A stretch of DNA of 64,000 nucleotides from Escherichia coli (GTDB taxonomy: Bacteria; Pseudomonadota; Gammaproteobacteria; Enterobacterales; Enterobacteriaceae). Positions 7,026 through 7,739 of this stretch are shown in pieces. Both the position numbers and the translations under genes were made by a program. Numbering within the stretch: position 1 is the first letter of the stretch; each line of letters begins with the position of its first letter. The notes beneath the pieces are model-generated. The model searched no databases. It saw only the letters and a program-made list of their open reading frames with translations, and was not told where the DNA came from. The DNA is taken from NCBI RefSeq assembly GCF_003334405.1, contig NZ_QOWM01000004.1; one strand, 5' to 3'.

Positions 7026-7739
7026 ATGGAATCATACTCGCAAAACAGCAATAAATTAGATTTTCAGCACGAGGCCAGGATATTAAACGGTATATGGCTC
7101 ATTACCGCTTTAGGTTTGGTGGCAACCGCAGGACTAGCCTGGGGAGCTAAGTATCTCGAAATTACGGCAACCAAATATGATTCACCACCAATGTATGTCG
7201 CCATAGGGTTATTATTACTTTGTATGTATGGCTTAAGTAAGGATATCAACAAGATAAATGCCGCCATCGCGGGCGTAATATATCTGTTTTTACTCTCTTT
7301 GGTGGCGATTGTCGTTGCAAGTTTAGTTCCTGTATATGCCATTATCATCGTGTTCAGCACTGCGGGCGCGATGTTTTTAATCAGTATGCTGGCCGGTTTA
7401 TTATTTAATGTTGATCCTGGTTCTCACCGTTTTATCATTATGATGACGTTGACAGGGTTGGCCCTGGTAATCATCGTGAATGCGGCATTAATGAGTGAAC
7501 GGCCCATTTGGGTAATAAGTTGCTTAATGATTGTGTTATGGTCAGGCATTATCTCGCATGGACGAAATAAGCTCCTTGAATTGGCGGGGAAATGCCATAG
7601 TGAAGAGTTGTGGAGTCCGGTTCGTTGCGCTTTTACAGGTGCATTAACACTCTATTACTATTTTATCGGCTTCTTTGGGATACTTGCCGCGATAGCTATA
7701 ACGCTTGTCTGGCAAAGGCATACGCGTTTTTTTCATTAG
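7026..7739 (+). CDS. ybhM: Inner membrane protein YbhM
   Basis: ORF 237 aa, hydrophobic multi-pass translation; visibly AT-rich codon usage. Confidence 0.88.
   Translation: MESYSQNSNKLDFQHEARILNGIWLITALGLVATAGLAWGAKYLEITATKYDSPPMYVAIGLLLLCMYGLSKDINKINAAIAGVIYLFLLSLVAIVVASLVPVYAIIIVFSTAGAMFLISMLAGLLFNVDPGSHRFIIMMTLTGLALVIIVNAALMSERPIWVISCLMIVLWSGIISHGRNKLLELAGKCHSEELWSPVRCAFTGALTLYYYFIGFFGILAAIAITLVWQRHTRFFH

What the first reader, a model, noticed from the sequence alone, without database searches (positions are those of the whole stretch)
7026..7739. ybhM is compositionally distinct from neighbouring ybhL
Both are small polytopic membrane proteins encoded in tandem, but ybhM codons look AT-rich relative to ybhL and it is preceded by a 200-bp AT-rich gap with a terminator after ybhL. 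This suggests separate origin and regulation rather than a simple duplicated pair.
Basis: seen in the sequence. Interest (0 to 1): 0.25.

Follow-up and report, generated by a model that had tools for sequence, protein, structure and literature searches.

The report
AT-rich accessory BI-1 paralog ybhM
ybhM really is compositionally foreign next to ybhL: it is a fast-evolving, separately transcribed, distant relative of ybhL, left over from a small variable gene islet between two core genes, which is an ordinary kind of accessory gene with one speculative twist.

Summary
ybhM (7026-7739) has GC3 0.454 against 0.617 for ybhL, second lowest of 53 ORFs in the window (z = -2.7). GC1 and GC2 are nearly equal in the two genes. 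The 204-bp spacer is 33% GC. ybhL ends in a hairpin plus T7 terminator, and the spacer holds a published sigma-70 promoter and H-NS site.

YbhM is a genuine but remote Bax1-I (PF01027) paralog, 25% identical to YbhL. In 37 of 45 enterobacterial species that keep ybhN downstream, ybhL abuts ybhN directly. ybhM belongs to a variable AT-rich islet found in Escherichia, Salmonella, Pseudocitrobacter, Phytobacter and Kluyvera georgiana. The islet carries one to three mutually divergent YbhM-like paralogs plus small ORFs. The K-12 form is the minimal one.

YbhM-like proteins lack the family's two conserved aspartates. Their dN/dS is 0.34-0.46, against 0.03 or less for neighbours. ybhM is visibly truncated or missing in about 12% of complete E. 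coli genomes.

Some islet variants carry immunity-like genes (Sip4-like, SUKH-4), which hints at an orphan-immunity role. That role is unproven. Overall this is a known gene and an ordinary accessory locus.

The parts
6117..6821 (+). ybhL, the core canonical BI-1/TMBIM-family inner-membrane protein (234 aa) with host-like GC3 of 0.617
   Evidence: ORF. Pfam Bax1-I, 211.9 bits, E 1.1e-62. Covered at 80% or more in 5425 of 5426 complete E. coli genomes. 72-100% identical across 80 enterobacterial species. Keeps both conserved Asp motifs, AYDTQKL and LYLDFINLF, which align to B. subtilis YetJ.
6840..6867 (+). Intrinsic-terminator-like hairpin (ATCCCGGCCATGTGTCGGGAT) plus T7 run, directly after the ybhL stop codon
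   Evidence: Consensus scan. RNA fold -11.6 kcal/mol, z -3.5 against 200 shuffles. The segment 6822-6867 is conserved in all islet haplotypes. Function is inferred, not measured.
6822..7025 (.). 204-bp AT-rich spacer (32.8% GC) between ybhL and ybhM. From about 6868 to 7058 it is specific to the K-12-type haplotype.
   Evidence: Composition. In 751 of 5426 E. coli genomes, roughly 6868-7058 is replaced by about 0.9 kb carrying a third BI-1 paralog, 'X'. No relic of X is detectable in the spacer. No Rfam match.
6877..6906 (+). Sigma-70 promoter-like site for ybhM (ACGACA, then TATAAA or TAAAAT)
   Evidence: Consensus scan. The same hexamers are listed as a constitutive RpoD promoter for ybhM, with an H-NS site in this spacer, by Shimada et al. 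2014 (PMC3946193).
7026..7739 (+). ybhM, a divergent AT-rich BI-1-family paralog (237 aa), accessory and fast-evolving, without the di-aspartate motif
   Evidence: - GC3 0.454.
- Pfam Bax1-I, 74.8 bits, E 1.1e-20, covering 3-205 of 207 model positions.
- 25% identity to YbhL over 151 aa.
- No NCBIfam family.
- AlphaFold2 model with 7 helices, pLDDT 85.5.
- dN/dS 0.34-0.46.
- Covered at 80% or more in only 4788 of 5426 E. coli genomes.
7757..7774 (+). Short stretch shared with the 3' end of 'orf73', the last gene of the larger islet form. It is a possible deletion scar.
   Evidence: Window 7757-7798 matches L087 6285-6326 at 97.6%. Window 7700-7721 matches the ybhM 3' end in L087. About 1.3 kb (P0221, DUF3969, orf73) lies between these two matches in L087. 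This is weak evidence: only about 12-18 nt lie beyond what the islet-free locus L003 also shares.
7775..8731 (-). ybhN, a core MprF-flippase-like membrane protein convergent with ybhL/ybhM. It forms the right-hand boundary of the islet.
   Evidence: ORF. NCBIfam MprF-like hit. GC3 0.671. dN/dS 0.02-0.03. Lies 200 bp or less from ybhL in 37 of 45 species that keep it downstream.

Best explanation
ybhM is the surviving gene of a small, variable, AT-rich accessory islet wedged between the convergent core genes ybhL and ybhN. It is not a recent tandem copy of ybhL and is not part of its transcript.

Shown:
- ybhL ends in a terminator-like hairpin.
- The AT-rich spacer carries a sigma-70 promoter-like site, which a published study also lists together with an H-NS site.
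- Most Enterobacteriaceae have ybhL abutting ybhN with nothing between them.
- A few lineages carry one to three mutually very divergent 'YbhM-like' BI-1 paralogs there, together with small ORFs. These lineages are Escherichia, Salmonella, Pseudocitrobacter, Phytobacter and Kluyvera georgiana.
- E. coli itself is polymorphic: ybhM alone; X+ybhM; X+ybhM+DUF3969+orf73; X+ybhM+P0221+DUF3969+two further ORFs, one of them SUKH-4-like; and truncated or IS-disrupted ybhM.
- YbhM keeps the Bax1-I sequence signature and seven predicted helices. It has lost both aspartates that are conserved in canonical members, and it evolves under weak purifying selection.

Inferred:
- The YbhM-like group descends from an old YbhL-type duplicate.
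- It has since diversified quickly and been reshuffled by recombination through the conserved flanks.
- Its low GC3 reflects life as a poorly expressed, H-NS-bound accessory gene, or residence in AT-richer donors.
- YbhM is a conditionally expressed, dispensable inner-membrane protein. It does not work as a canonical pH-gated Ca2+/H+ leak channel, and its role differs from the housekeeping role of YbhL.
For: Composition and signals. Promoter and H-NS site from PMC3946193.

Remote paralogy.

Absence in relatives:
- Among 80 species loci, only E. coli, E. albertii, a Pseudocitrobacter MAG and Phytobacter massiliensis show a second BI-1 gene downstream of ybhL.
- 37 of 45 loci with ybhN downstream have a gap of 200 bp or less.

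Narrow family:
- phmmer against 1.84 billion representatives gives only 97 hits.
- Full-length relatives outside YbhM's own cluster with E<1e-10 are at most 35% identical. Every one that carries a source name is from Enterobacteriaceae.
- The word-indexed search of 5.8 billion proteins finds only Escherichia and Shigella.

Same-site paralogs: Salmonella, cryptic-clade Escherichia with four tandem BI-1 genes, Kluyvera georgiana, Phytobacter, and a metagenome contig related to Pseudocitrobacter.

E. coli polymorphism.
- ybhL is covered at 80% or more in 5425 genomes, ybhM in 4788.
- 1256 genomes fall in the 90-95% identity band for ybhM, against 181 for ybhL.

Selection: ybhM dN/dS is 0.34-0.46 and X is 0.39. 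ybhL, ybhN and moaE are 0.00-0.03, apart from one moaE comparison resting on only two substitutions.

Loss of the two conserved Asp: alignment A1, motif survey, YetJ alignment.

Expression hints: ybhM was induced 4.6- to 5.1-fold in EHEC on lettuce at day 5 (PMC6891304). IS5 disrupts ybhM in the laboratory strain RR1 without known consequence (PMC5379014).
Against: - No integrase, transposase, tRNA or flanking direct repeats mark the islet in the window.
- No plasmid or phage copy exists, so horizontal movement is inferred only from distribution and haplotype structure.
- The nearest canonical relatives of YbhM are YbhL-type proteins, and YbhM-like genes almost always sit beside ybhL. A purely vertical history of old duplication, fast divergence and many losses therefore cannot be excluded.
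- The promoter and terminator are consensus-level predictions backed by one genomic-SELEX paper. No transcript data were examined here.
- Monophyly of the YbhM-like group has only 42 of 100 bootstrap support in a crude neighbour-joining tree.
Confidence: 0.75

Rival explanations
1. Orphan immunity gene. YbhM-like BI-1 paralogs would be inner-membrane immunity (or decoy) proteins against membrane-depolarising toxins delivered by competitors, such as T6SS pore-formers like Ssp4/Ssp6, CDI ionophores or pore-forming colicins. The ybhL-ybhN islet would then be an orphan-immunity gene cluster whose content is driven by diversifying selection.
For: - In Salmonella the YbhM-like gene is followed by two polytopic ORFs that hit NCBIfam NF053812 'immunity protein Sip4' (E 3.4e-5 and 8.2e-8).
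- The same three-gene module recurs downstream of guaA (E 3.5e-8 and 3.1e-4). In one genome it lies next to a PF11876 TsiV protein.
- Sip4 is the inner-membrane immunity protein to the cation-selective T6SS pore-former Ssp4 (PMC12669606).
- The E. coli GF4-3 islet variant carries an ORF matching Pfam SUKH-4 immunity protein (E 3.7e-5).
- The Superficieibacter YbhM-like gene lies two genes from a VgrG.
- Arrays of divergent paralogs, AT-richness, presence/absence polymorphism and raised dN/dS are typical of immunity-gene clusters.
Against: - No toxin or effector gene lies next to any YbhM-like gene examined, and there are none in the window.
- The Sip4 and SUKH-4 hits are far below curated thresholds.
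- YbhM-like and Sip4-like profiles are unrelated (hhalign probability 0.3%).
- YbhM has no PADLOC hit and no meaningful PHROG hit.
- No paper links the BI-1 family to T6SS immunity.
- dN/dS stays below 1.
- Variable sites are spread along the protein rather than concentrated in periplasmic loops (the data are noisy).
- The K-12 islet holds ybhM alone.
Confidence: 0.2
2. Purely vertical tandem duplicate. ybhM arose by in-situ duplication of ybhL in an ancestor, was lost many times, and became AT-rich only through relaxed selection and mutational AT bias in a weakly expressed gene. No horizontal transfer would be involved.
For: - The closest canonical relatives of YbhM are YbhL-type BI-1 proteins, 40-52% identical to YbhL.
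- YbhM-like genes sit immediately downstream of ybhL in five genera.
- No mobility genes or repeats flank the islet, and there are no plasmid or phage copies.
- The Phytobacter paralog has host-like GC3 of 0.76.
Against: - This history needs many independent losses, since 37 of 45 species have no insert.
- Positional counterparts in E. coli and Salmonella are only about 31% identical, while YbhL is about 90% identical.
- YbhM-like genes also occur away from ybhL, downstream of guaA in Salmonella and at a VgrG-linked locus in Superficieibacter.
- Sharp haplotype boundaries exist inside E. coli. Between the window and L001, dS is 0.006 for ybhL and 0.10 for ybhM.
- Non-homologous replacement of 6868-7058 by the X segment points to exchange of alleles.
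Confidence: 0.2
3. Decaying relic. ybhM would be a functionless remnant on its way to becoming a pseudogene, and its composition and variability would simply reflect neutral decay.
For: - About 12% of complete E. coli genomes lack 80% coverage of ybhM.
- There are IS1, IS5 and IS200 insertions and a recurrent 325-bp in-frame deletion allele.
- Many truncated protein clusters exist.
- The conserved aspartates are lost.
- The K-12 islet looks like a deletion derivative.
Against: - dN/dS of 0.34-0.46 across dS of 0.10-0.21 is clearly below 1.
- The reading frame is intact in about 88% of genomes, in cryptic-clade Escherichia, and in some E. albertii at 88% identity.
- The gene has its own promoter and a good Shine-Dalgarno sequence.
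- It is induced in EHEC on plants.
- Sub-family-specific motifs are conserved.
Confidence: 0.12
4. Chance fluctuation. The GC3 difference would be ordinary gene-to-gene scatter with no biological meaning.
For: Only one window was analysed for the background. Two or three other ORFs in it have similarly low GC3.
Against: - z = -2.7 among 53 ORFs.
- The drop is shared by the spacer (33% GC) and by every other islet gene in other strains, with GC3 of 0.22-0.45.
- It coincides exactly with the phylogenetic presence/absence boundary.
Confidence: 0.02

Closest known systems
YbhL, and YbhL-type bacterial BI-1/TMBIM proteins (Pfam PF01027)
   Same: Same Pfam family over the full domain, similar length (234 and 237 aa), seven predicted helices, and adjacent on the same strand. 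YbhL-type proteins are the closest canonical relatives of YbhM.
   Different: - Only 25% identity.
- The YbhM Pfam score is 75 bits against 212 for YbhL.
- Both conserved Asp are replaced: SHGRNKL for AYDTQKL, and LYYYF for LYLDF.
- GC3 is 0.45 against 0.62.
- dN/dS is about 0.4 against 0.02 or less.
- YbhM is accessory and polymorphic, while ybhL is universal in Enterobacterales.
Bacillus subtilis YetJ (PDB 4PGR and related entries), the structurally characterised pH-sensitive Ca2+-leak BI-1 homologue
   Same: YbhL aligns to YetJ by sequence (E 1e-8), including both Asp motifs. YbhM shares the family profile and a seven-helix prediction.
   Different: - YbhM has no direct sequence hit to any PDB chain.
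- The di-aspartyl latch, D171 and D195 in YetJ numbering taken from my own knowledge of Chang et al. 2014, is absent.
- A YetJ-like gating mechanism is therefore not expected.
YccA, the FtsH/HflKC modulator and third E. coli BI-1 paralog
   Same: Same superfamily. Both are small polytopic inner-membrane proteins.
   Different: YbhM gives no hit to the NCBIfam YccA equivalog NF007765, while YbhL hits it weakly (E 4.7e-5). Nothing here bears on an FtsH interaction.
H-NS-bound, AT-rich, horizontally acquired islets of E. coli (xenogeneic silencing)
   Same: Low GC and GC3, AT-rich upstream spacer, a published H-NS site, lineage-restricted distribution, presence/absence polymorphism, IS insertions, and weak purifying selection.
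   Different: The islet is very small, one gene in K-12. It has no integrase, tRNA or repeats. Its cargo is a paralog of the adjacent core gene, which suggests local origin plus recombinational exchange rather than classic island insertion.
Orphan immunity-gene clusters of polymorphic toxin and T6SS systems (for example Sip4, SUKH-family and TsiV proteins)
   Same: Tandem arrays of divergent paralogs, AT-richness, strain-to-strain variability, and co-occurrence with Sip4-like, SUKH-4-like and TsiV-family ORFs in some islet variants.
   Different: No effector gene is adjacent. YbhM has no homology to known immunity families. The supporting hits are sub-threshold. No experimental link is known.

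Membership tests
Bax1-I / TMBIM (Pfam PF01027) | Significant full-length match to the family profile | tested here: met
   YbhM residues 19-222 match model positions 3-205 of 207, at 74.8 bits and E 1.1e-20. For comparison, YbhL scores 211.9 bits.
Bax1-I / TMBIM (Pfam PF01027) | Seven transmembrane helices in about 230 residues | tested here: met
   The AlphaFold2 model built on a 14-sequence alignment has pLDDT 85.5 and pTM 0.81, with seven helices: 2-43, 54-76, 79-100, 103-127, 134-154, 159-192 and 198-236. This is a prediction only.
Bax1-I / TMBIM (Pfam PF01027) | Three-dimensional fold superposable on a solved member (YetJ, 4PGR) | tested here: inconclusive
Canonical pH-gated Ca2+-leak BI-1 (YetJ/hBI-1 type) | Conserved di-aspartyl pair in TM6 and TM7 (motifs xYDxxK[LI] and LYLDF[IV]N) | tested here: not met
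   - Alignment A1 shows YbhM with SHGRNKL and LYYYFIG at these positions.
- X, the Salmonella, Kluyvera, Superficieibacter, Pseudocitrobacter and Phytobacter paralogs also lack one or both Asp.
- YbhL and YetJ keep both.
- In the motif survey, about two thirds of the YbhL-type hits keep both motifs and nearly all keep at least one. The YbhM-like hits keep none, except for the first motif in P0085.
Canonical pH-gated Ca2+-leak BI-1 (YetJ/hBI-1 type) | Measured Ca2+/H+ leak activity | not testable with these tools
   This needs proteoliposome or in-cell flux assays.
YbhL orthologue group | High identity and conserved synteny across Enterobacterales | tested here: not met
   YbhM is 25% identical to YbhL. 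YbhL orthologues are 72-100% identical in 80 species. YbhM has no relative above 37% identity outside Escherichia.
YccA (FtsH modulator, NCBIfam NF007765) | Match to the YccA equivalog model | tested here: not met
   No NCBIfam family matches YbhM at E<=0.01.
Horizontally acquired / xenogeneically silenced islet | Atypical base composition relative to the host | tested here: met
   GC3 0.454 against a window mean of 0.589 (z -2.7). The spacer is 33% GC. Other islet genes have GC3 of 0.22-0.45.
Horizontally acquired / xenogeneically silenced islet | Patchy phylogenetic distribution and within-species presence/absence polymorphism | tested here: met
   Searches show absence in most genera. Searches show several E. 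coli haplotypes. L003, a divergent Escherichia, has no islet.
Horizontally acquired / xenogeneically silenced islet | Mobility signatures (integrase, tRNA target, flanking direct repeats, plasmid or phage copies) | tested here: not met
   None are found in the window. There are no true plasmid or phage copies.
Horizontally acquired / xenogeneically silenced islet | H-NS binding | not testable with these tools
   This is taken from the literature only. An H-NS site is listed in the ybhL-ybhM spacer (PMC3946193).
T6SS / polymorphic-toxin immunity protein | Homology to a known immunity family | tested here: not met
   YbhM has no NCBIfam or PADLOC hit. hhalign of YbhM-like against Sip4-like profiles gives probability 0.3%.
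T6SS / polymorphic-toxin immunity protein | Encoded next to a cognate toxin or effector gene | tested here: not met
   No effector-like gene was found beside ybhM in the window or beside any YbhM-like gene examined. The Superficieibacter neighbour of 864 aa is unclassified, and VgrG lies two genes away.
T6SS / polymorphic-toxin immunity protein | Co-location with other immunity-type genes | tested here: inconclusive
   Sub-threshold Sip4-like ORFs occur in both Salmonella modules. A SUKH-4-like ORF occurs in E. coli GF4-3. A TsiV-family ORF occurs in L093. None of these is present in the K-12-type window.

The most novel reading that the evidence does not exclude
YbhM and its relatives (X, P0221, and the Salmonella, Kluyvera and Pseudocitrobacter paralogs) would form an undescribed, Enterobacteriaceae-restricted offshoot of the BI-1/TMBIM family. 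It would have given up the ion-leak latch and been recruited as membrane-embedded immunity or decoy proteins against pore-forming toxins delivered by T6SS, CDI or colicins. These genes would travel in orphan-immunity islets together with Sip4-like and SUKH-type genes.
Probability: 0.18. Interest if true: 0.6.

Novelty: already known. Interest (0 to 1): 0.3.

Why it matters
As it stands, this is a textbook accessory gene, AT-rich and H-NS-associated, beside a core paralog. It is a useful caution against reading ybhL and ybhM as a functional pair or an operon.

The added value is modest but concrete:
- The ybhL-ybhN junction is a recombination-accessible slot that different Enterobacteriaceae fill with different cargo.
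- The K-12 state is the stripped-down version of that slot.
- YbhM-like proteins form a rapidly evolving BI-1 offshoot without the family's conserved aspartates.

If the immunity reading were true, it would give the bacterial BI-1 family a new role and give ybhM, a long-standing y-gene, a testable function.

Tried and rejected
- Sip4-like and YbhM-like proteins as one superfamily: rejected (hhalign probability 0.3%).
- Known defence or phage families: no PADLOC hits and only insignificant PHROG hits for YbhM, X, P0221, DUF3969, orf73 and the Salmonella and Pseudocitrobacter ORFs.
- Mobile vector: no phage hit. The plasmid 'hits' are megabase-size or chromosomal fragments mislabelled as plasmids.
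- Structured RNA or repeats in the spacer: no Rfam match. There is only a weak 20-nt, 80% inverted repeat, probably chance.
- Relic of paralog X in the K-12 spacer: none by blastn or tblastn.
- Extending the family by profile search of the 5.8-billion protein set added only Pseudocitrobacter and Phytobacter clusters. The Sip4-like ORFs have relatives only in Salmonella.
- Neighbour-joining tree: the aspartate-less paralogs fall on one side of the tree, but with 42 of 100 bootstrap support. YbhM itself is a long branch (the first attempt timed out).
- Mapping variable sites onto topology: variable positions are spread throughout (109 of 237 among 20 cluster representatives). Some representatives probably carry assembly errors, so no conclusion was drawn.
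- Literature: no paper was found on ybhM function, DUF3969, or BI-1 proteins as immunity factors. The 'TEGT gene' paper concerns yccA, not ybhM.
- Small ORFs of other islet variants (L096, L026, L095 152 aa, L017 162 aa): no family assignment.
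Full report
**What is at the coordinates**

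The window is an E. coli K-12-like chromosome segment: moaABCDE, ybhL, ybhM, then ybhN, clsB and ybhP on the other strand. Its DNA is 99.9-100% identical to K-12-type strains. ybhL is 6117-6821 (+, 234 aa). ybhM is 7026-7739 (+, 237 aa). ybhN is 7775-8731 (-).

**Check of the observation**

GC by codon position is 0.451/0.391/0.617 for ybhL and 0.433/0.391/0.454 for ybhM. First and second positions are practically equal, as expected for two hydrophobic proteins of one family. The difference is a 16-point drop at third positions, so it reflects codon choice and not amino-acid content. Among 53 long ORFs of the window, GC3 averages 0.589 (sd 0.049). ybhM lies at z = -2.7 and is second lowest.

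The 204-bp spacer 6822-7025 is 32.8% GC. Directly after the ybhL stop codon there is a hairpin at 6840-6860, followed by seven T. It folds at -11.6 kcal/mol, z = -3.5 against shuffles.

**Regulation**

The spacer holds a sigma-70-like site at 6877-6906 (ACGACA, then TATAAA or TAAAAT). The same hexamers are listed as a constitutive RpoD promoter for ybhM in the genomic-SELEX survey of Shimada et al. 2014, which also marks an H-NS site in this spacer (PMC3946193). An AAGGA Shine-Dalgarno sequence precedes the ATG. No Rfam family matches the region. Separate transcription of ybhM is thus well supported by sequence and by one published data set. I examined no transcript data.

**Relationship of the two proteins**

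Both match Pfam Bax1-I (PF01027) over the whole domain. YbhL scores 211.9 bits and YbhM only 74.8 bits. They are 25% identical over 151 residues (E 1e-12). YbhM matches no NCBIfam model and no PDB sequence. YbhL aligns to B. subtilis YetJ.

In the multiple alignment, the two aspartates conserved in YbhL and YetJ (AYDTQKL and LYLDFINLF) are replaced in YbhM by SHGRNKL and LYYYFIG. From my own knowledge of the YetJ structure papers, these residues form the pH-sensing latch of the Ca2+-leak pathway. YbhM is therefore unlikely to work in the canonical way.

**Phylogenetic distribution**

A scan of one genome per species with YbhL returned 80 enterobacterial loci, 72-100% identical.
- In 45 of them ybhN lies downstream. 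In 37 of those 45 the two genes are 200 bp or less apart.
- Only E. coli, E. albertii, a Pseudocitrobacter MAG and Phytobacter massiliensis showed a second BI-1 gene there.
- Other species carry unrelated cargo in the same slot: catalase plus a second unrelated ORF in Pluralibacter, a weak Phd/RelE-like pair in Siccibacter, and an unknown 257-aa ORF in Dryocola.
- One divergent Escherichia genome (L003, dS about 0.43 to the window) has no insert at all.

A word-indexed search of 5.8 billion proteins finds YbhM only in Escherichia and Shigella, at 68% identity or more. An exhaustive phmmer search of 1.84 billion cluster representatives finds just 97 hits.
- The full-length hits outside YbhM's own cluster with E<1e-10 are at most 35% identical.
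- Every one of them that carries a source name is from Enterobacteriaceae: Escherichia cryptic clades, Salmonella, Kluyvera georgiana, Superficieibacter and Pseudocitrobacter.
- The weaker hits are YbhL-type proteins, 40-52% identical to YbhL. About two thirds of them keep both Asp motifs and nearly all keep at least one.

**The islet**

Context look-ups show that the YbhM-like genes nearly always occupy the ybhL-ybhN slot:
- Salmonella: ybhL, a 235-aa paralog, orf202, orf186, ybhN.
- Cryptic-clade Escherichia: ybhL, X, ybhM, P0221, DUF3969, orf73, ybhN. That is four tandem BI-1-family genes.
- Kluyvera georgiana.
- Phytobacter.
- A metagenome contig related to Pseudocitrobacter, with two paralogs and six small ORFs.

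Within 5426 complete E. coli genomes:
- ybhL is always covered at 80% or more, but ybhM only in 4788.
- 751 genomes carry the extra paralog X, which replaces window positions of about 6868-7058.
- A few tens carry parts of the DUF3969-orf73 segment (29 genomes match it at all). One such locus reads X-ybhM-DUF3969-orf73. Another carries P0221, DUF3969 and two further ORFs.
- Others have IS1 or IS200 insertions or a 325-bp in-frame deletion in ybhM. The laboratory strain RR1 has IS5 in ybhM (PMC5379014).

All islet genes are AT-rich, with GC3 of 0.22-0.45. Window 7757-7774 matches the last codons of orf73, and about 1.3 kb is missing relative to the large form. The K-12 arrangement therefore looks like a deletion-reduced version, although that scar is short.

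**Selection**

Between the window, an X-bearing E. coli (L001) and a cryptic-clade Escherichia (L087), dN/dS is 0.34-0.46 for ybhM and 0.39 for X. It is 0.00-0.03 for ybhL, ybhN and moaE, apart from one moaE comparison that rests on only two substitutions. dS jumps from 0.006 in ybhL to 0.10 in ybhM between the window and L001, which marks a haplotype boundary in the spacer. ybhM is thus under weak but real purifying selection. It is not neutral, and this crude measure does not show it to be positively selected.

**Origin**

Two facts argue that the YbhM-like group ultimately derives from an old YbhL-type duplicate. Its nearest canonical relatives are YbhL-type proteins, and it is almost always adjacent to ybhL.

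Several facts argue that it has since behaved as exchangeable accessory DNA, most simply through homologous recombination in the conserved flanks:
- its patchy distribution;
- about 31% identity between the E. coli and Salmonella occupants of the same slot, against about 90% for YbhL;
- non-homologous allele replacement within E. coli;
- copies at other loci, namely downstream of guaA in Salmonella and at a VgrG-linked locus in Superficieibacter.

No integrase, tRNA, repeats, plasmid or phage copies were found. A crude neighbour-joining tree groups the aspartate-less paralogs together with only 42 of 100 bootstrap support.

**A speculative lead**

The two polytopic ORFs that follow the Salmonella paralog give sub-threshold but repeated hits to the NCBIfam model for Sip4 (E 8e-8 to 3e-4 over most of the model). 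This holds at both Salmonella loci. Sip4 is the inner-membrane immunity protein to the T6SS cation-pore effector Ssp4 (PMC12669606).

One Salmonella locus also has a TsiV-family gene. The E. coli GF4-3 islet has a SUKH-4-like ORF (E 3.7e-5).

This company, together with the tandem divergent paralogs and the raised dN/dS, resembles orphan-immunity clusters. Against it:
- no effector gene is adjacent anywhere;
- YbhM-like and Sip4-like profiles are unrelated;
- there are no PADLOC hits;
- no literature links BI-1 proteins to immunity;
- the K-12 islet contains ybhM alone.

I rate this reading at about 0.2.

**Verdict**

The object is a known, annotated y-gene, and its AT-rich, H-NS-associated character is ordinary for accessory DNA. 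What this analysis adds:
- a description of the variable ybhL-ybhN islet;
- the reduced state of K-12;
- the loss of the conserved aspartates;
- the fast evolution of the YbhM-like branch;
- a testable but weakly supported immunity hypothesis.

Noticed in passing
window 59212-61560 and 61568-62896: These are the other strongly AT-shifted ORFs of the window. One is a 782-aa EAL-type c-di-GMP phosphodiesterase-like protein (GC3 0.451, the lowest in the window). The other is a 442-aa GGDEF diguanylate cyclase-like protein (GC3 0.497). They may also be lineage-specific acquisitions.
   Followed up: partly
window 28029-28433 (-): A low-GC3 (0.474) ORF whose C-terminal 86 residues match the DUF1471 periplasmic protein McbA/YbiM. 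The ATG-extended ORF is probably too long at its 5' end.
   Followed up: partly
window about 5985-6030: A REP-like GC-rich palindromic element (GCCGGATAAGGCACCGCTGCGTCCGGCA) lies between the moaE stop codon and the ybhL promoter region.
   Followed up: no
L001 2467-3171; 751 of 5426 E. coli genomes: A third BI-1 paralog, 'X' (234-246 aa, GC3 0.41), lies between ybhL and ybhM in about 14% of complete E. coli genomes, including O104:H4 2011C-3493. It is 28% identical to YbhM and 24% to YbhL.
   Followed up: yes
L085-L087 5001-6299; L094; L095: Larger islet forms exist in cryptic-clade Escherichia and rare E. coli. They add a fourth BI-1-like gene (P0221, 232 aa, no Pfam hit on record), a DUF3969 protein (118 aa, GC3 0.22) and a 73-aa ORF. 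In strain GF4-3 there are also a 152-aa ORF and a 186-aa ORF matching SUKH-4.
   Followed up: partly
L004 6063-9247 (E. albertii NBRC 107761): The E. albertii islet holds an AT-rich EptA/CptA-like phosphoethanolamine transferase (553 aa), only a 3' fragment of ybhM (81 aa), a P0221-like paralog and a DUF3969-like ORF.
   Followed up: partly
L083 5001-6908; L092/L093 7001-8900 (Salmonella enterica): A three-gene module occurs at two different Salmonella loci, between ybhL and ybhN and downstream of guaA. It consists of a YbhM-like BI-1 paralog and two Sip4-like polytopic ORFs. At the second locus it lies beside Sel1-repeat, DUF1266 and DjlB_C genes, and in one genome beside a TsiV-family gene and an IS element.
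   Followed up: partly
L090 7001-12275 (Superficieibacter electus): A YbhM-like paralog lies away from ybhL. It is followed by an unclassified 864-aa protein and then a VgrG (Phage_GPD) gene at the contig end.
   Followed up: partly
L088/L089 (Kluyvera georgiana): ybhN, clsB and ybhP are missing. The order is ybhL, YbhM-like paralog, ybhQ, so the right flank of the slot has been deleted in this species.
   Followed up: no
L003 5702-5754: A genome labelled E. coli (strain SCPM-O-B-8794) is about 0.43 dS from the window and has no ybhM at all. ybhL and ybhN are about 50 bp apart. It is probably a different Escherichia species carrying the E. coli name.
   Followed up: partly
PLSDB records H94, H96-H100: Several 'plasmid' records that match ybhM are 0.7-4.9 Mb long. 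They are evidently chromosomes or chromosome fragments mislabelled as plasmids.
   Followed up: no
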